From: Candidatus Giovannonibacteria bacterium RIFCSPHIGHO2_01_FULL_45_24
GTDB taxonomy: Bacteria > Patescibacteriota > Minisyncoccia > UBA11713 > 2-01-FULL-45-33
DNA length: 53,291 nt
Assembly: GCA_001778495.1 (NCBI GenBank)
Contig: MFHE01000010.1
Coordinates: forward strand, 1-53,291
Reading direction: 5' to 3'
The translations under genes were made by a program, and so were the position numbers. The notes under the pieces were generated by a model that worked only from the letters and a program-made list of their open reading frames with translations, was not told the DNA's origin and did no database searches. Each line of letters opens with the position of its first letter. Positions within the stretch are counted from its first letter, which is position 1. Shown piece after piece: positions 1-7,419 of this stretch.

Positions 1-91
1 CTTGCGGTTACTTGTGCCAACATTCTCACTTCCAAACGCTCCACTCCGGCTCGCGCCGTGAGCTTCACTGCGATTGGAACGCTCTCCTACC

Positions 92-437
92 AATTGGTGC
101 TTGAATTTTGGAGGGGAACTTTTTTAAGGCTCCCCAAATTACTCCTTTCGTTGCTAATTAATGAAGAAGGCATACGACACAACCTTCCGGGTCACTACAT
201 CCGCCACACCATCGTCGTTTTTTTCCATCGAAGTTTCGTTCGAAAGCGTACGGATTGCCGCTGTTCAACTCTTCACTTTTGCGCATGTGTTCCACGGCCC
301 ACTTCTCGCCTTTTTCCAGAGCTTTCGCAAAATCCCGGTTGAAACGTATCAGGTTCGGAACATCAACAATTTTCTTGGCCATGACTGTTCTCCTTTCCAA
401 AGAACTAAATTTTAAATCCAAAATTCAAGCACCAATT
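92..437 (-). other. Intervening sequence in 23S helix 45: 310-nt insert (110-419) closed by an 18-bp perfect inverted repeat
   Basis: aattggtgcttgaatttt (92-109) is the exact reverse complement of aaaattcaagcaccaatt (420-437). Conserved 23S sequence resumes on both sides. E. coli has only a short hairpin at this position (recalled). Confidence 0.75.
158..382 (-). CDS. 74-aa ORF inside the 23S insertion; C-terminal CxxC-x5-CxxC (WCGGCSDPEGCVVC); no family recognised
   Basis: Track ORF 158..421 trimmed to the ATG at 382, which has AAGGAG (complement of 390-395) 7 nt upstream. Same strand as the rRNA. Confidence 0.45.
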   Translation of the reverse strand: MAKKIVDVPNLIRFNRDFAKALEKGEKWAVEHMRKSEELNSGNPYAFERNFDGKKRRWCGGCSDPEGCVVCLLH

Positions 438-1929
438 CCTCACCTTCGGTACTCTGCTTAGCCCCGATAATTTTCGGCGCGAAGTCTCTTGACGAGTGAG
501 CTGTTACGCACTCTTTAAAGGATGGCTGCTTCTAAGCCAACCTCCTCGCTGTTTAAGAAACTCCACCACCTTCTTTGCACTTAGCAGAAATTTAGGGACC
601 TTAGATTGAGATCTGGGCTGTTTCCCTTTTGACCAATGGAGCTTAGCCCCCATAGTCTGACTAGCCCGTATATACAACTGGCATTCGGAGTTTAGTAGGA
701 TCGTCGAGCTTTCGCCCTATACGAACCTTCTAGTAGCTCTACCTCCAGTATTTTACGGGCCGCTAGCCCTAAAGCTATTTCGGAGAGAACCAGCTATTAC
801 CGAATTCGATTAGCTTTTCACTCCTTGCCACAGCTCATCCGATAGTATTGAACGGCTAAACGGTTCGGGCCTCCCCCCGCCTTTCGGCGGGGTTCACCCT
901 GGCCATGGCAAGCTCATCCGGCTTCGGGTCTATCCAGCACCTTTTTTGATAAATGAATATCAAATTCGCCATTTTAAGACTTGGTTTCCCTTTGCCTCCG
1001 GGCTAGACGCCCTTAGACAAAAGATGCTGGATAAGTCGTTGGCTCATTCTTCAATAGGCACGCCGTCATCCCGCGCCTTTGTAAAAAGGCGCGGGACTCC
1101 GACTCCTTGTAAGCATATGGTTTCAGGTACTATTTCATCGCCCTCACCGGGCTGCTTTTCAACTTTCCCTCACGGTACTGGTTCACTATCGATGATAAAA
1201 GGTATTTAGCCTTACCGGCTCGTGCCGGCAGTTTCCCCCGAACATCACGTTTTTCGGGGTACTCAAGTAAGGTCCAGAGAGTCAAAGGTGACTTTCGCTT
1301 ACGGGGCTATTACCCTCTTTGGCCGGCCTTTCCAGGGCCGTTCTGCTAGACAGACCTTTTTTGATTCAACTCTCCACGAGGATTAACCCTCATACGGACC
1401 AAACTTACTACTGCTCAATTTTCCTAATTAATAAATTAATCAAGAAAAAAGAACTCTGGGCTTTTCCCTTTTCGCTCGCCGCTACTTGGGGAATATACTA
1501 TTGTTTTCTTTTCCTCCGCTTACTGAAATGTTTTACTTCAGCGGGTTCGCCGCTCCGACGCAAGGTCGGAGCTCGTTTTGCTTTCGCAAAACGAGGTTTC
1601 CCCATTCGGAAATCTTGGGATCAAAGGTTGCTAGACACCTCCCCCAAGCTTAACGCAGTCACGCCACGCCCTTCGTCGCCCATTTTATCTCGAGCCATCC
1701 GCCATACGCCCTTTTACCCCCGCTAAGCGGGGGCGTAACCTGCCCCGATGCAAGATCGGGGCCGTCTTGTTAGAAAATGCGCTTACAAATTACACTATCT
1801 TGTCAAGGTGCGCACACGCTATAAACAAAAAATCCGCTCATCAGGAGCGGGGAAACACGCAAAAAACGAGAATCACCCACTTGTTGTTCCTAATGGATTA
1901 AAAATCTTATTCATAGATTATGTAAACCC

Positions 1930-4097: not shown

Positions 4098-4592
4098 TTA
4101 CTTTTGTTTTTTACCAATTTCATTTAACGCTCTGGCGAAACTCGCCATTGGCTGACTAAGCACAAACGCAAGCTGGGTAAGCAAAACCTCGCGCGTTGGG
4201 ATCGCCGCTAATCTTTTGATCTCATCGGCGCCGATCCATACTTTTTTCCAAAATCCCCCGATAATCTTCAACATCTCTTTATTTTTTCTGGCGAAATTCA
4301 CAACTTCCTTTGAGGATGCCAGCGCCTCGTCTTCGCCTTCGGCAAAAACCGCCCCGATCTCGCCTTCCAACTTCTCACGGCTCATTTCCAACCCCGCTTC
4401 CTTGGCCGCAACTCCCAAGAGTGTCTTTTTTGAAACCAAATAATCTCCGCCAGCTTTTTTGAGCGCCCGTCTCAATTCCTGCGCCTTTGCCACCGAAAGC
4501 CCGTGAAAGTTTAACAAAGCAATAAAACCAGAAACGCTCAATTTCTCTTTGAGCTTTTTAACCGCCTCTTCTTTTTGTTTTCTTGTAATCAT
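4098..4592 (-). CDS. rplJ: Ribosomal protein L10
   Basis: 164 aa, immediately upstream of rplL, with L10-like sequence. Confidence 0.93.
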   Translation of the reverse strand: MITRKQKEEAVKKLKEKLSVSGFIALLNFHGLSVAKAQELRRALKKAGGDYLVSKKTLLGVAAKEAGLEMSREKLEGEIGAVFAEGEDEALASSKEVVNFARKNKEMLKIIGGFWKKVWIGADEIKRLAAIPTREVLLTQLAFVLSQPMASFARALNEIGKKQK

Positions 4593-4707
4593 AAAACAAT
4601 TTTAGCGGCCCAAAAGCCGCTTTCGCACCTAGTGAGGTCTTAAAGTATCCCCGCCCCACTTCTACGGCAATGAACCGAGCATAGCAAACCCCAGAATCTA
4701 TGCAATA

Positions 4708-4736
4708 TTGACAAATAAAGTATAACATGCTAACAT
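4708..4736 (+). promoter_or_regulatory. Promoter: TTGACA - 17 nt (ending TGC) - TAACAT
   Basis: TTGACA 4708-4713 and TAACAT 4731-4736. Same architecture as the promoters at 9085 and 14849. Confidence 0.55.
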
Positions 4737-4772
4737 TATAAGCGGGGCGAATTTAAGCACAGGAGGTGCTCC

Positions 4773-5156
4773 TTGGCAAAAATAGTGAAATTGAGCGCGC
4801 TTACTCCAGAGGCGATAAGGCAGATCGTAAACATTTACCACAATACCTTGGGTGGAGAAATGGGGAAACTATACCACGAAAAATATCTGCTGGAAGGAAT
4901 CAAAAGAGATCTTCAGCATATCTCTACTTCAAAGTGGAGATTTGGATCTAGATTCTCTGAGCATTCCAAATTACTGGTGCAAAAGGTTTACGATTCCCCA
5001 TTCAGCAATTTCGAAAATCCGGTCGTGAAATTCGAATTTTACGCAGGAGAACGTAATCGCGAAGGCCGACTTATTGATTCAGATGCAGAAAGGTTTAGCG
5101 AGGCTTTTGAAAACGCAGTGGATCAATACCTGACAAACATTGGTCTCGCGCTTTAA
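4773..5156 (+). CDS. Hypothetical protein (127 aa), TTG start
   Basis: AGGAGG at 4761-4766, 6 nt before the TTG at 4773. Confidence 0.7.
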   Translation: MAKIVKLSALTPEAIRQIVNIYHNTLGGEMGKLYHEKYLLEGIKRDLQHISTSKWRFGSRFSEHSKLLVQKVYDSPFSNFENPVVKFEFYAGERNREGRLIDSDAERFSEAFENAVDQYLTNIGLAL

Positions 5157-5172
5157 AAACAAGGCCTAAAAT

Positions 5173-5225
5173 AGCGGTGAGGGATAACCACGTAAAACGT
5201 GTCCGTCCCAATACCCGCTTTTTTA
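5173..5225 (+). terminator. Imperfect hairpin followed by a T6 run
   Basis: agcgg..ggga / tccc..ccgct arms, then tttttt at 5219-5224. Confidence 0.4.
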
Positions 5226-5270
5226 TTTTCCAACGCCAATTAAAACCCATCACAATTCTATACTATATTC

Positions 5271-5312
5271 TATACTATCTATCACCAACGATCGTTGAAT
5301 ATAGATACTATG
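5271..5312. promoter_or_regulatory. 42-bp imperfect palindrome with a perfect 12-bp core CAACGATCGTTG (5286-5297), overlapping the stop of the PaaX-like gene
   Basis: Arms tatactatctat / atagatactatg match 10 of 12. The left arm is tandemly duplicated (attctatactat x2, 5256-5279). Confidence 0.6.
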
Positions 5313-5967
5313 CATGTTTGCGCAAAATATCTTTAAAATAATATAATACTTTCCCGCTCTTTAAATCGTTTGTCGTAAAAATCTCAACGAAAGGATGGAT
5401 ATTAAATATATCGCACAAAAATTTAATTTCGTGCTCGCATGGAAAAGGGTGAACCCATACGCTTCTCTGAAGCGGATAGAATCCTAAATTTTTTAGCTGA
5501 TTCCATAATGCATACCTGGATTTTTTAAATTTTTCCGGGATGTCAAAAATTACAACTCGCCATTTTTTATCCCATTTTGCCGGAGATTTTATTTCCAATG
5601 TTTCAAGTAATAATGTTTTAGTCAGTGCGCGCCCCTTGTCAGTAAATCTATAAACCAATCCGCCATCCTTGCTTTCGCCTACACATTCAAACACATTGCG
5701 CTTTTTTAAAGCGTGAAATCTTGCCCAAAGTTTTTGATACCGCTCCTGTTTGTCTTTCTTGGCTCTAGCCAAACCCTTACCAGCAATGGCGGCAATACCA
5801 GGCGCTACAACGGCAACGGTAAGTACCCCACCTAAAATGGCCGTGGCAAACAATGCCTTAATTGTCGATGAAGCAATTGGATGTTTAGCAACAAATTCTT
5901 TTACGCGATCTTTAATTTCGTCCGATATTTTCGGATCAGCAAAGTAAATTGGCTTATGTTTTGGCAT
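5308..5967 (-). CDS. PaaX-like (Cas2-fold C-terminal domain) putative regulator with an N-terminal TM segment
   Basis: 219 aa. WRVVIFDIPEKFKKSRYALWNQLKNLGFYPLQRSVWVHP matches the recalled PaaX-type signature. Confidence 0.6.
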   Translation of the reverse strand: MPKHKPIYFADPKISDEIKDRVKEFVAKHPIASSTIKALFATAILGGVLTVAVVAPGIAAIAGKGLARAKKDKQERYQKLWARFHALKKRNVFECVGESKDGGLVYRFTDKGRALTKTLLLETLEIKSPAKWDKKWRVVIFDIPEKFKKSRYALWNQLKNLGFYPLQRSVWVHPFPCEHEIKFLCDIFNIHPFVEIFTTNDLKSGKVLYYFKDILRKHA

Positions 5968-6018: not shown

Positions 6019-6031
6019 CACGGTAAGAAAG

Positions 6032-6739
6032 TTATCCCCAGAGCAGGGTGTATGCCGCAACGACGGAGGCGGTTTCGGAGCGCAATGTCAGACGACCCAA
6101 GGATATAATTTCAAAATTTGCGCGCCCTGCGGCGAAAATTTCGCGCTCTTCCCAGCCGCCTTCCGGGCCAACAAAAAGATTCATCTGCCTGTCACCCGCG
6201 CCGCGCATCATATTTTCTTTCTCGGAAACTGCTGCAAAATAAGTTTTTGCTCCCGAGAGCCCCGCTTGACCTACCGCCCGCTCAAAAAAAACAACCGGAT
6301 GCAATTTTGGGATTACCGCCCGCCCCGACTGCTCCGCGGCTTCTTTTAAAATCGCGGCACACCGCTCCGTATTTAAGCTTTTCTTTTCGGATCTGGCGGA
6401 TATTACCGGCGCGATCTCCGAAACCCCAATTTCTGTGGCTTTCTCCAAAACCCATTCAAACTTATCTTTTTTAACCAGCGATTGGTATAGAATCAATTTC
6501 TTTGATGGTTCACGGGTGTTTTCAAGTTTTTCCCTAAGCATAAGAGCTGCGGAGCCGGCTTCAATATTTTTGAGCTCAAAGACAAAATCAAAGCCGAGAT
6601 ACTCCGGAGCGCCGCTGAAAAACACGGCTTGTTCTCCTTTTCGAATTTTTAAAACGTCTCTAATCTGGTGAATTACCGAGCGGTCTCTCACCACCAAAAT
6701 TTCTTTATTTAATTCTTGCGGCAGATAAAACCTGTGCAT
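6032..6739 (-). CDS. rsmE: 16S rRNA (uracil1498-N3)-methyltransferase
   Basis: 235 aa, MHRFYLP... N-terminus and C-terminal GPEGGW..E motif. Confidence 0.88.
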   Translation of the reverse strand: MHRFYLPQELNKEILVVRDRSVIHQIRDVLKIRKGEQAVFFSGAPEYLGFDFVFELKNIEAGSAALMLREKLENTREPSKKLILYQSLVKKDKFEWVLEKATEIGVSEIAPVISARSEKKSLNTERCAAILKEAAEQSGRAVIPKLHPVVFFERAVGQAGLSGAKTYFAAVSEKENMMRGAGDRQMNLFVGPEGGWEEREIFAAGRANFEIISLGRLTLRSETASVVAAYTLLWG

Positions 6740-7419
6740 TATTTCGTATCAATAATTATAGTAAATTCTCCTCTTTGGCGCTCGCCCGTGAAGTGTTTTT
6801 GGGCTTCGGATAATTTGCCCCTGAAAATTTCTTCGTGAAGCTTTGTCAGCTCCCTGCCGATGTTTACATATCTATCGCCATTGGCCACTTCCAGCTCACG
6901 CAGAGTTTTTTGTACGCGGTGGGGCGACTCAAAAATAATTACCGGCATATTTATCTTGGCAACACGCCCGAAAAATGTCTGCCGGCCTTTTTTGCGCGGA
7001 GGGAAACCCAAAAAAATAAAATTACTTAAATCGATGTCGCTGGCGGACACTATAGCTGAAAGCGCCGAGGGCCCCGGGATCGGTATCACGGAAGCCGAGC
7101 TTCCACTTGGAAGTTCGGCTTCCAAGTAAGCGATGAGTTTGCGGCCCGGGTCGGAAATGCCCGGAGTTCCTGCGTCAGTGACTAGCGCCAAATTTTTGTT
7201 TTCTTTGATTAAATTTAGAATTTTTTCTAAAATTTTTGGAGATGAATGCTCTCGAAAAGAAATCGTCGGCTTGGAAATCCCGAGATGCGCCAGCAATTTT
7301 CTGGTTACTCTTGTGTCTTCAGCTAAAACAACATCAACTGATTTTAACGTTTCTATCGCGCGGAGCGTGACGTCTTTTAAATTCCCGATGGGCGTGGCTA
7401 CGATAAAGAGCTTTGGCAT
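6739..7419 (-). CDS. rsmI: 16S rRNA 2'-O-ribose C1402 methyltransferase (tetrapyrrole-methylase fold)
   Basis: Track ORF 6739..7539 trimmed to MPKLFIVATPIGNLKDVTLRA (ATG at 7419). DAGTPGISDPG and PGPSA motifs present. Confidence 0.88.
   Translation of the reverse strand: MPKLFIVATPIGNLKDVTLRAIETLKSVDVVLAEDTRVTRKLLAHLGISKPTISFREHSSPKILEKILNLIKENKNLALVTDAGTPGISDPGRKLIAYLEAELPSGSSASVIPIPGPSALSAIVSASDIDLSNFIFLGFPPRKKGRQTFFGRVAKINMPVIIFESPHRVQKTLRELEVANGDRYVNIGRELTKLHEEIFRGKLSEAQKHFTGERQRGEFTIIIDTK
7090..7127. repeat. REP-like palindromic element, about 1.5 copies, in-frame inside rsmI
   Basis: GGAAGCCGAGCTTCC (7090-7104) plus ACTTGGAAG-TTCGG-CTTCCAAGT (7105-7127). Translated in rsmI as LEAELPSGSSAS. 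Confidence 0.8.

What the first reader, a model, noticed from the sequence alone, without database searches (positions are those of the whole stretch)
92..437. 310-nt insertion in 23S rRNA helix 45 closed by an 18-bp perfect stem
Conserved 23S sequence stops at 109 and resumes at 420. The junctions are exact reverse complements over 18 nt (92-109 and 420-437). This extends the helix-45 hairpin into a long duplex, which is the classic RNase III substrate of 23S intervening sequences.

Helix 45 is one of the known IVS sites in Salmonella, Leptospira and Coxiella. If the insert is excised without religation, the mature 23S would be fragmented.

rRNA insertions are a reported CPR trait. Those I recall are mostly intron or homing-endonuclease types, not short helix-45 IVSs.
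Basis: partly seen in the sequence, partly recalled or inferred. Interest (0 to 1): 0.55.

Follow-up and report, generated by a model that had tools for sequence, protein, structure and literature searches.

The report
Protein-coding insert in 23S rRNA helix 45
The 23S ribosomal RNA gene of this tiny-genome (Giovannonibacteria-like) bacterium carries a stem-closed insert at a classic "intervening sequence" site that holds a conserved small protein gene, and it belongs to a family of such inserts that swap small genes and sometimes live outside the rRNA.

Summary
Observation confirmed. The 23S rRNA lies on the minus strand (window 1-1725). A covariance alignment puts about 310 extra nt in the loop of the hairpin homologous to E. 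coli 1164-1185, which is helix 45. The closing inverted repeat is 21 nt perfect (92-112 / 417-437), not 18.

The helix-45 intervening sequence (IVS) reading is supported:
- A same-genus genome has an empty 37-nt helix 45.
- No intron model matches.
- The genome encodes an intact RNase III.

This finding's text does not mention that the insert carries a sense-strand 74-aa ORF (382..158). The ORF has a Shine-Dalgarno (SD) site, remote homologues and dN/dS 0.23. It is not the S23p/PF05635 protein of the Leptospira and Coxiella IVSs.

The same 21-bp arms, an A/U-rich leader with SD, and a GC-rich hairpin abutting the 3' arm enclose 1-4 unrelated small ORFs. This holds in helix 45 of six other units (7 of 401 class genomes have paired arms) and in 14 metagenome loci. 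Three units are free-standing, two of them with terminators. Arm changes are compensatory, or wobble pairs valid only in the sense RNA.

Helix-45 IVSs in CPR (Candidate Phyla Radiation) bacteria were already suggested in print (PMC11270868). This scan had also found the free-standing units on other DNA (e1-4945419).

Verdict: new variant of a known kind.

The parts
1..1725 (-). 5' part of the 23S rRNA gene (Rfam LSU model 1-1316). It is cut by the contig end, and the 3' 1.6 kb is not in the assembly.
417..437 (-). 5' arm of the closing stem in the RNA. 430-437 is the helix-45 base AAUUGGUG. 417-429 is the insert-borne extension CUUGAAUUUUGGA, identical in every unit found except G046, where one pair changes on both sides.
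92..112 (-). 3' arm of the closing stem (UCCAAAAUUCAAG + CACCAAUU). It is followed by the conserved GGUAGGAGAGCG of the 23S.
383..416 (-). A/U-rich leader with a Shine-Dalgarno site (AGGAGA at 389-394, 6 nt before the ATG). It is a hybrid of the family's first-ORF leader (UAGUUCUUUGGA) and its internal-ORF junction (AAGGAGAACAGUC).
158..382 (-). ORF of 74 aa (P0001), stop TAA at 158-160. It has three N-terminal helices and a C-terminal C-x2-C-x6-C-x2-C knuckle. It belongs to an unnamed small-protein family.
136..157 (-). 3' untranslated remnant of the family's inter-ORF junction (AACGAAAGGAG...). Together with the hairpin and 3' arm it is 94% identical over 63 nt to the 3' end of free-standing unit G017a.
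113..135 (-). GC-rich hairpin (GGGGAGCC...GUUCCCC) stacked directly on the 3' arm. A hairpin at this position, with unrelated sequences, is present in all 15 units examined.

Best explanation
This is an intervening sequence (IVS) that replaces the helix-45 hairpin of the 23S rRNA. It doubles as an expression cassette for a small protein gene.

Shown:
- The insert sits in helix 45.
- It is closed by a 21-bp perfect stem whose pairing is kept by compensatory and sense-strand-only wobble changes across relatives.
- It is present or absent among close relatives.
- It carries, on the rRNA-sense strand, an SD-preceded 74-aa ORF under purifying selection.
- It shares its arms, leader and 3' hairpin design with helix-45 inserts of other Giovannonibacteria-like genomes, which hold 1-4 different small ORFs, and with free-standing units.

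Inferred:
- The insert is transcribed from the rRNA promoter as part of pre-23S.
- The genome's RNase III cuts the 21-bp stem without religation.
- This leaves a 23S of about 1.3 kb plus a 3' fragment, and releases an RNA of about 300 nt.
- The ends of that RNA are protected by the residual stem and the abutting hairpin, and it serves as mRNA for the 74-aa zinc-knuckle protein.
- New cargo arrives and is shuffled by homologous recombination, through the 23S flanks and arms and through the conserved inter-ORF junction AACGAAAGGAGAACNGYC-AUG.

The window's single-ORF unit looks like a deletion derivative of a multi-ORF array like G017a. The biochemical role of the protein is unknown.
For: Site:
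- The covariance alignment places the insert in the helix-45 loop, and the E. coli anchors agree.

Stem:
- The repeat is 21/21 perfect.
- All 22 units listed keep 21 of 21 pairs.
- G036, G160 and G203 carry G-C to A-U changes on both sides. G046 carries several double changes.
- The three single changes (G017a, G017b, G046) give G-U pairs only in the sense RNA.

IVS behaviour:
- G001 (same genus) has a 37-nt helix 45. Other relatives have 32-37 nt, or ORF-less hairpins of 116-174 nt.
- Metagenome locus L202 has a 3' 23S flank 118/118 identical to the window but a different cargo ORF.
- No Rfam family matches the insert.
- RNase III scores 249.9 bits against a cut-off of 166, with an open frame of 236 aa.

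Coding:
- SD AGGAGA lies 6 nt before the ATG.
- There are 23 phmmer hits, down to 1.8e-18 apart from near-identical copies.
- The alignment shows conserved GExWA...FDG...WC..C...GC..C.L.
- dN/dS is 0.23 against the G017a copy.
- Cargo family A has dN/dS 0.04-0.08.

Family:
- Paired arms occur in 7 of 401 genomes of the class. Those of G036, G182, G160 and G046 lie inside 23S at helix 45.
- 14 metagenome loci were found.
- Free-standing units G017a, G017b and L205 keep the arms. G017a and G017b have a TTGAC(A/G)-17-TATGAA promoter-like site upstream and a scored terminator right after GGUAG; L205 shares the same terminator-like 3' flank by sequence.
- A GC-rich hairpin lies 0-2 nt before the 3' arm in all 15 units, with at least 5 unrelated sequences.
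- The window's unit is mosaic relative to the G017 units.

Precedent:
- The Coxiella helix-45 IVS is excised by RNase III (PMC4990558).
Against: - There is no RNA evidence at all.
- 21 bp is near the lower end for efficient RNase III cleavage.
- In the best-studied ORF-bearing IVS (Coxiella) the ORF is not translated and the excised RNA is rapidly degraded (PMC4990558).
- In the window's minimum-free-energy fold, the SD is partly sequestered in a small local hairpin.
- The protein has no known family or fold.
- The protein was found in only 2 of 401 class genomes, and in none of a further 400 genomes of the phylum. It is therefore dispensable.
- No recombinase or nuclease that could explain mobility is encoded in any unit.
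Confidence: 0.6

Rival explanations
1. Retained expansion segment. The insert is not excised but stays in the mature 23S as a surface-exposed extension of helix 45, as in eukaryotic expansion segments. The ORF is translated, if at all, only from precursor or decay products.
For: Helix 45 is a surface helix that tolerates large additions. Many relatives carry 116-174-nt hairpins there. No RNA data exclude retention.
Against: - The same arms are kept, with sense-RNA-only wobble changes, in free-standing units that are not part of any ribosome. The stem therefore has a role independent of ribosome architecture.
- Units reach 1085 nt with four ORFs, which is hard to reconcile with a structural rRNA element.
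- An intact RNase III is present.
- Classical helix-45 IVSs with such stems are excised (PMC4990558).
Confidence: 0.13
2. Selfish IVS with a non-expressed or decaying ORF, as proposed for Coxiella S23p. The insert is excised and degraded, and the ORF is an evolutionary passenger without current function.
For: This is the Coxiella precedent (PMC4990558). The cargo is sporadic. One relative (G160) has a truncated 27-aa first ORF. The window's unit looks like a deletion remnant.
Against: - dN/dS is 0.23 for this ORF and 0.04-0.08 for cargo family A, with saturated synonymous sites.
- Every ORF has a canonical SD at proper spacing. Coxiella's ORF lacks a ribosome binding site.
- Free-standing units provide their own promoter-like site and terminator for the same ORFs.
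Confidence: 0.15
3. The arms are DNA-level recombination sites of a cassette system (integron-attC-like or hairpin-transposase-like), not RNA processing signals. Helix 45 is merely the preferred integration target.
For: The structure is cassette-like and modular, with invariant 13-nt terminal inverted repeats and varied cargo. This genome also hosts hairpin repeats linked to a transposase (earlier notes e1-4967920 and e1-4967922, not tested here).
Against: - No recombinase is encoded in or next to any unit.
- The whole helix-45 hairpin, including its basal 8 bp, is replaced. This is not an insertion with target duplication.
- Free-standing units carry 55 nt or more of foreign 23S flank, which is the signature of homologous recombination.
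- Arm substitutions are G-U wobbles valid only in the sense RNA.
Confidence: 0.08
4. Assembly chimera: the insert was joined to the 23S by metagenome misassembly.
For: The genome is a 14-contig MAG, and the contig ends inside the 23S.
Against: The identical protein is recorded on 12 contigs up to 154 kb, with near-identical variants on others. The same architecture is assembled independently in at least 7 genomes and 14 metagenome contigs.
Confidence: 0.02

Closest known systems
ORF-bearing helix-45 intervening sequences of 23S rRNA (Coxiella burnetii 428-444-nt IVS with S23p; Leptospira IVS) - PMC4990558
   Same: Both lie at the same site (helix 45) and replace the small hairpin with a long stem formed by terminal inverted repeats. 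Both carry an ORF in the loop on the rRNA-sense strand, are distributed sporadically, and were apparently acquired horizontally. The host encodes RNase III.
   Different: - The ORF here is not PF05635/S23p: no Pfam hit, and the model is three helices plus a Cys knuckle rather than a four-helix bundle.
- It has a canonical SD and is under purifying selection. Coxiella's ORF lacks an RBS, is decaying, and is not made in vivo.
- The stem is 21 bp and perfect (Coxiella's is 28 bp with a mismatch and a bulge) and has no heptamer repeats.
- Units hold 1-4 interchangeable ORFs joined by a conserved junction, and free-standing copies exist.
ORF-less helix-25/helix-45 IVSs of Salmonella, Yersinia, Campylobacter, Proteus (RNase III-excised, about 90-110 nt)
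   Same: Same site, with a long perfect stem as the presumed RNase III substrate. Filled and empty sites occur among close relatives. Relatives of this genome (G017, G008, G034, G035, G022) have exactly such ORF-less hairpins of 116-174 nt.
   Different: The window's unit is three times longer and protein-coding, with a leader, an SD and an end-protecting hairpin.
Non-intron insertions at sites 23IS2 and 23IS4 of CPR 23S rRNA genes (Tsurumaki et al. 2024, PMC11270868)
   Same: Same group of organisms, and the same class of site (known IVS sites). The authors already suggest these are RNase III-type IVSs.
   Different: That survey annotated only ORFs with Pfam domains (homing endonucleases, 23S_rRNA_IVP). 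It left 'long sequences (500-1,000 bp) of unknown function' undescribed. The conserved arms, small-ORF cargo families and free-standing copies are not described there.
Group I introns with LAGLIDADG/GIY-YIG homing endonucleases in CPR rRNA genes
   Same: Both are insertions in CPR rRNA genes that carry an ORF and spread horizontally.
   Different: There is no intron fold (no Rfam match at E <= 1) and no endonuclease domain. The insert is at a hairpin tip in the 5' half of the 23S, closed by a simple duplex. Fragmentation rather than splicing is expected.

Membership tests
Helix-45 intervening sequence (IVS) of bacterial 23S rRNA | Lies in the 23S gene and replaces the terminal hairpin of helix 45 (E. 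coli 1164-1185) | tested here: met
   The cmscan insertion falls in the loop of model helix 1205-1226, just before GGUAGGAGAGCG. The same anchors bracket E. coli nt 1158-1185.
Helix-45 intervening sequence (IVS) of bacterial 23S rRNA | Terminal inverted repeats form a long, nearly perfect stem | tested here: met
   The stem is 21 bp and perfect. Pairing is kept in all 22 units listed, by compensatory and wobble changes.
Helix-45 intervening sequence (IVS) of bacterial 23S rRNA | Sporadic presence among close relatives (filled and empty sites) | tested here: met
   G001 (same genus, flanks 95-98% identical) has a 37-nt helix 45. Lengths among relatives range from 32 to 632 nt.
Helix-45 intervening sequence (IVS) of bacterial 23S rRNA | Excised from pre-23S by RNase III without religation, giving a fragmented 23S | not testable with these tools
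Only the enzyme's gene could be shown (TIGR02191, 249.9 bits, intact).
S23p / 23S_rRNA_IVP (PF05635) ORF-bearing IVS | The ORF encodes a PF05635 four-helix-bundle protein | tested here: not met
   No Pfam family matches at E <= 10. The AlphaFold2 model (pLDDT 84.6) has three short helices plus a Cys knuckle.
Group I/II intron with homing endonuclease (CPR rRNA insertions) | Intron RNA fold recognisable by Rfam models | tested here: not met
   The window has no intron family at gathering score, and 80-450 has no match at E <= 1.
Group I/II intron with homing endonuclease (CPR rRNA insertions) | The ORF has a LAGLIDADG, GIY-YIG or HNH domain | tested here: not met
   No Pfam, NCBIfam or PADLOC hit; the only PHROGs row is one of unknown function at E = 0.26.
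Giovannonibacteria helix-45 small-gene cassette family (defined in this scan; e1-4945419) | 13-nt arm extension CUUGAAUUUUGGA / UCCAAAAUUCAAG on the helix-45 base | tested here: met
   The window's arms are identical to those of G017a/b, G182, L192-L205 and others.
Giovannonibacteria helix-45 small-gene cassette family (defined in this scan; e1-4945419) | A/U-rich leader with SD, sense-strand small ORF(s), and a GC-rich hairpin abutting the 3' arm | tested here: met
   The window's 3' end is 94% identical to that of G017a over 63 nt.
Giovannonibacteria helix-45 small-gene cassette family (defined in this scan; e1-4945419) | Cargo ORF shared with another unit of the family | tested here: met
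   P0001 and G017a ORF2 are 64% identical in protein and 73% in nucleotides, with dN/dS 0.23.

The most novel reading that the evidence does not exclude
Helix 45 of the 23S rRNA serves in Giovannonibacteria-like bacteria as an expression platform for a shuffling pool of small protein genes.

The rRNA promoter transcribes them. RNase III cutting of a conserved 21-bp stem releases them as end-protected mRNAs. The rRNA gene is therefore also a polycistronic protein-coding operon.

Cassettes move between lineages by recombination through the 23S flanks. They also move into 23S-mimicking 'docking' loci that have their own promoter and terminator.
Probability: 0.4. Interest if true: 0.75.

Novelty: new variant of a known kind. 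Interest (0 to 1): 0.6.

Why it matters
Classical 23S intervening sequences are regarded as selfish or neutral spacers. The only well-studied ORF-bearing one (Coxiella) appears not to be translated.

Here the inserts carry well-conserved small genes with Shine-Dalgarno sites, in an architecture that looks built for release and stabilisation of an mRNA. The architecture is an invariant stem, a leader, and an end hairpin.

If the inferences hold, they would have three consequences:
- Ribosomal RNA genes in reduced-genome bacteria can host and express exchangeable protein genes.
- Expression of these genes would be coupled to ribosome synthesis.
- Gene callers that mask rRNA would miss a whole class of small proteins.

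The case also gives a concrete, testable instance of how IVSs spread, namely by homologous replacement of the whole helix together with 23S flanks.

Tried and rejected
Tools unavailable:
The genomic context of the remote homologues P0003-P0024 could not be seen.
There was no RNA-seq test, and read laying went unused.

Searches that gave nothing useful:
- The search for related loci with the full alignment A1 failed, because no stretch was conserved enough.
- Sub-alignments A2 and A3 found no relatives in viral contigs.
- tblastn of P0001 and P0013 found nothing in phages or plasmids.
It was useful only for the names 'Candidatus Giovannonibacteria' on the G160 and G203 contigs.
- Pfam, NCBIfam, PHROGs and PADLOC gave nothing significant for P0001 or for the other cargo proteins scanned against Pfam or PADLOC.
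- Foldseek against PDB gave no match. VIA-align wide gave a best Z of 2.4.
- ESM Atlas scores were 0.78 or lower, which is noise level.
- The first attempt to get E. coli numbering hit a mislabelled 2.9-kb 'plasmid' that is a foreign 23S. MG1655 rrlH replaced it.

Readings considered and rejected:
- Intron: no RNA model and no endonuclease.
- S23p-type IVS: no PF05635.
- The antisense 84-aa ORF at 161-415 (+): no SD was examined for it and no homologues were seen, whereas the sense ORF has both.

Full report
**1. Observation**

The window begins inside a 23S rRNA gene on the minus strand. Rfam LSU_rRNA_bacteria matches window 1-1725 to model positions 1-1316 at 962 bits, cut by the contig end. 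A second run on 1-640 shows the alignment around the finding. Conserved sequence runs to the 5' strand of a model hairpin (positions 1205-1212). About 310 nt are then left as a single insertion, and conserved sequence resumes with the 3' strand (1219-1226), followed by GGUAGGAGAGCGUUCC.

In E. coli K-12 rrlH the same two anchors, CCGAAG and GGTAGGGGAGCG, bracket nt 1158-1185. The hairpin 1164-1185 is helix 45 in the standard numbering, which I take from established knowledge. The helix assignment is therefore right.

The repeat finder gives a 21-nt, 100% complementary inverted repeat at 92-112 / 417-437, and it is the only one in the first 700 nt. The sense RNA of 85-445 folds with this stem as the closing helix, at -108.5 kcal/mol and z = -3.2.

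**2. What this finding's text omitted**

On the rRNA-sense strand the insert contains an ORF, 382..158, of 74 aa (P0001). AGGAGA lies 6 nt upstream of the ATG.

It is a real gene, on three grounds:
- A full phmmer scan of 1.84 billion representatives gives 23 hits. They go down to 1.8e-18 apart from near-identical copies.
- The alignment shows a conserved pattern, GExWA ... FDG..(K/R)WC..C...GC..C.L.
- Against its homologue in genome G017 it is 64% identical in protein and 73% in nucleotides, with dN/dS = 0.23.

AlphaFold2 with this alignment gives pLDDT 84.6, with three short helices and a C-terminal C-x2-C-x6-C-x2-C knuckle.

Nothing in Pfam, NCBIfam or PADLOC matches, and the single PHROGs row (E = 0.26, unknown function) is not significant. 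No solved structure resembles the model. Two remote homologues carry the domain fused to a Clp protease domain (PF00574, 87 bits in P0004). This is a lead, not a function. The ORF is not the S23p/PF05635 protein of the Leptospira and Coxiella IVSs.

**3. Behaviour as an IVS**

I compared the region with 40 relatives and extracted the stretch between the two anchors.
- The same-genus complete genome G001 has flanks 95-98% identical and an ordinary 37-nt helix 45. Its stem sequence differs, so in the window the whole hairpin was replaced, including its basal 8 bp.
- Other relatives have 32-37 nt.
- Others have ORF-less, nearly perfect hairpins of 116-174 nt (G017's own 23S, G008, G034, G035, G022).
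- G036 has a 632-nt insert.

No intron or other Rfam family matches the insert, even at E <= 1. The genome encodes an intact RNase III: TIGR02191 at 249.9 bits against a cut-off of 166, with a 236-aa open frame.

**4. A family with constant packaging and variable cargo**

Distribution:
- The arm motif was sought in 401 genomes of the class. Exact paired arms occur in 7 of them: G000, G017 (two pairs), G036, G182, G160, G203 and G046. Single one-mismatch hits are about as frequent as the reversed-pattern control.
- cmscan shows that the pairs in G036, G182, G160 and G046 lie inside 23S genes. Their flanks are those of helix 45. The G203 pair, near a contig end, is bracketed by the same helix-45 flanks.
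- A 26-nt pattern (3' arm plus GGTAG) found 14 metagenome loci.

Anatomy. Across these units, of 291-1085 nt, the layout is constant:
- a 5' arm of 8 bp helix-45 base plus CUUGAAUUUUGGA;
- an A/U-rich spacer;
- UAGUUCNUUGGAGGUG-N-AUG for the first ORF;
- further ORFs, each preceded by AACGAAAGGAGAACNGYC-AUG;
- a GC-rich hairpin 0-2 nt before the 3' arm, in at least five unrelated sequences;
- the 3' arm.

Cargo. The cargo differs from unit to unit:
- family A, 77 aa (MxHRDDLD...GVMKDFP), with dN/dS 0.04-0.08;
- family B, which is P0001;
- family C, 60-76 aa;
- family D, 78-85 aa;
- several singletons.

None of the cargo proteins scanned against Pfam or PADLOC gave a significant hit. Family B was found in only G000 and G017 among 401 class genomes, and in none of a further 400 genomes of the phylum. 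Metagenome locus L202 has a 3' 23S flank 118/118 identical to the window, yet it carries a family D gene in a 327-nt unit. Cargo therefore differs at the same site between very close relatives.

**5. The stem is selected at the RNA level**

All units keep 21 of 21 pairs.
- G036, G160 and G203 changed a G-C pair to A-U on both sides.
- G046 changed several pairs on both sides.
- The three single-sided changes (G017a, G017b, G046) give G-U pairs in the rRNA-sense RNA and would be A-C mismatches in the antisense strand.

The count is small but consistent.

**6. Free-standing units**

In G017, two units lie between a membrane-protein gene and the 23S (L032 about 4400-5640 and 6020-6900). A third unit is in metagenome contig L205.

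In G017a and G017b the layout is:
- a TTGAC(A/G)-17-TATGAA promoter-like site, read from the sequence (the simple scanner did not score it);
- a stretch resembling the 23S just upstream of helix 45;
- the arms;
- 2-4 ORFs;
- the hairpin;
- the 3' arm and GGUAG;
- then, at once, a terminator-like hairpin with a T run.

L205 keeps the arms and has the same terminator-like 3' flank by sequence; its promoter was not examined.

The last 55 nt of the 23S-like leader of G017a are identical to the 23S of another family (G036, G182) and not to G017's own 23S. Further upstream, similarity falls off. This pattern fits recombination with foreign 23S-IVS DNA.

I reached these units independently. The scan had already reported them as e1-4945419, and my results agree with that report.

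The window's unit is a mosaic of these units:

| Part of the window's unit | Closest match | Identity |
|---|---|---|
| leader | G017b | 86% |
| SD junction | three G017 junctions | 92-100% |
| ORF | G017a ORF2 | 79% |
| 3' end | G017a | 94% |

The window's leader fuses the first-ORF leader to an internal junction at GGA. Its 3' UTR keeps an 'empty' junction. The simplest reading is a deletion derivative of a multi-ORF array, with recombination at the repeated SD junctions.

**7. Mechanism**

Shown: the site, the stem, its conservation, the coding capacity, the family, the filled and empty sites, and the RNase III gene.

Inferred:
- The insert is transcribed within pre-23S.
- RNase III cleaves the 21-bp stem without religation.
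- The 23S is fragmented into about 1.3 kb plus a 3' piece.
- An RNA of about 300 nt is released. Its residual stem and abutting hairpin protect its ends, and it is translated.

The inference rests on three things:
- precedent, since the Coxiella helix-45 IVS is excised by RNase III (PMC4990558);
- retention of the stem in units that are not part of a ribosome;
- an architecture that makes sense for an excised mRNA. A hairpin without a U tract would not terminate rRNA transcription but would block 3' exonucleases.

Against it:
- There are no RNA data.
- 21 bp is near the minimum for RNase III.
- In Coxiella the ORF is untranslated and the RNA is short-lived.

I put the full chain at about 0.6. 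The IVS identity alone is about 0.95, and translation of the ORF about 0.8.

**8. Comparison with what is known**

The closest known kinds are the ORF-bearing helix-45 IVSs of Coxiella and Leptospira and the ORF-less IVSs of enterobacteria. For CPR bacteria, Tsurumaki et al. 2024 (PMC11270868) found insertions in 82% of 23S genes. They noted many short non-intron insertions at the known IVS sites and suggested they are RNase III-type IVSs. That survey annotated only ORFs with Pfam domains.

In the library searched I found no description of the following:
- the conserved arms;
- the SD-equipped small-ORF cargo;
- the junction-mediated shuffling;
- the free-standing copies.

Hence the verdict is a new variant of a known kind, not a new kind. 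The bare observation handed to me, an IVS in helix 45, is of a known kind.

**9. Limits**

- Counts are from samples of species representatives, and rRNA genes are often unassembled in MAGs.
- The promoter calls for the free-standing units are by eye.

Noticed in passing
window 1060-1100 and 1370-1450: The 23S has further small insertions relative to the Rfam model: about 20 nt after model 283, about 28 nt after model 312, and about 14 nt after model 583. They are probably lineage-specific helix extensions.
   Followed up: no
window 1 (contig end): The contig ends inside the 23S at model position 1316, and no other LSU fragment exists in the 531-kb assembly. The 3' 1.6 kb of the gene is unassembled, possibly because of further insertions. 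The same-genus G001 23S spans 4246 nt for 2925 model positions.
   Followed up: partly
L004 1698-1826 (G017), L006 1693-1809 (G008), L010, L019, L018: Five relatives carry ORF-less, nearly perfect long hairpins of 116-174 nt in helix 45 (-39 to -72 kcal/mol), with unrelated sequences. These are classical-looking short IVSs. G017 has one in its 23S while also hosting two free-standing ORF units.
   Followed up: partly
L032 4400-5640 and 6020-6900; L205 8700-9400: These are free-standing helix-45-type units. In G017a and G017b the order is promoter-like TTGAC(A/G)-17-TATGAA, 23S-mimic leader, arms, 2-4 ORFs, GGUAG, terminator; L205 keeps the arms and the same terminator-like 3' flank. The leader of G017a is identical over 55 nt to the 23S of a different family. 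This scan reported them earlier as e1-4945419.
   Followed up: yes
P0004, P0014 (remote homologues of the window's ORF): In these two proteins the P0001-like domain is fused N-terminally to a Clp protease domain (PF00574, 87 bits in P0004). This may hint at a ClpP-linked role. The genomic context could not be retrieved.
   Followed up: partly
L069 2513-2593 (G160 unit): The first ORF of the G160 helix-45 unit is only 27 aa, and overlapping frames follow. It looks like decaying cargo.
   Followed up: no
L206 (NZ_AP027616.1): A 2911-bp record labelled as an E. coli plasmid consists only of a 23S rRNA that lacks the E. coli 5' end motif. It differs from rrlH around helix 45. It is probably contamination or misassembly in a RefSeq genome.
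   Followed up: no
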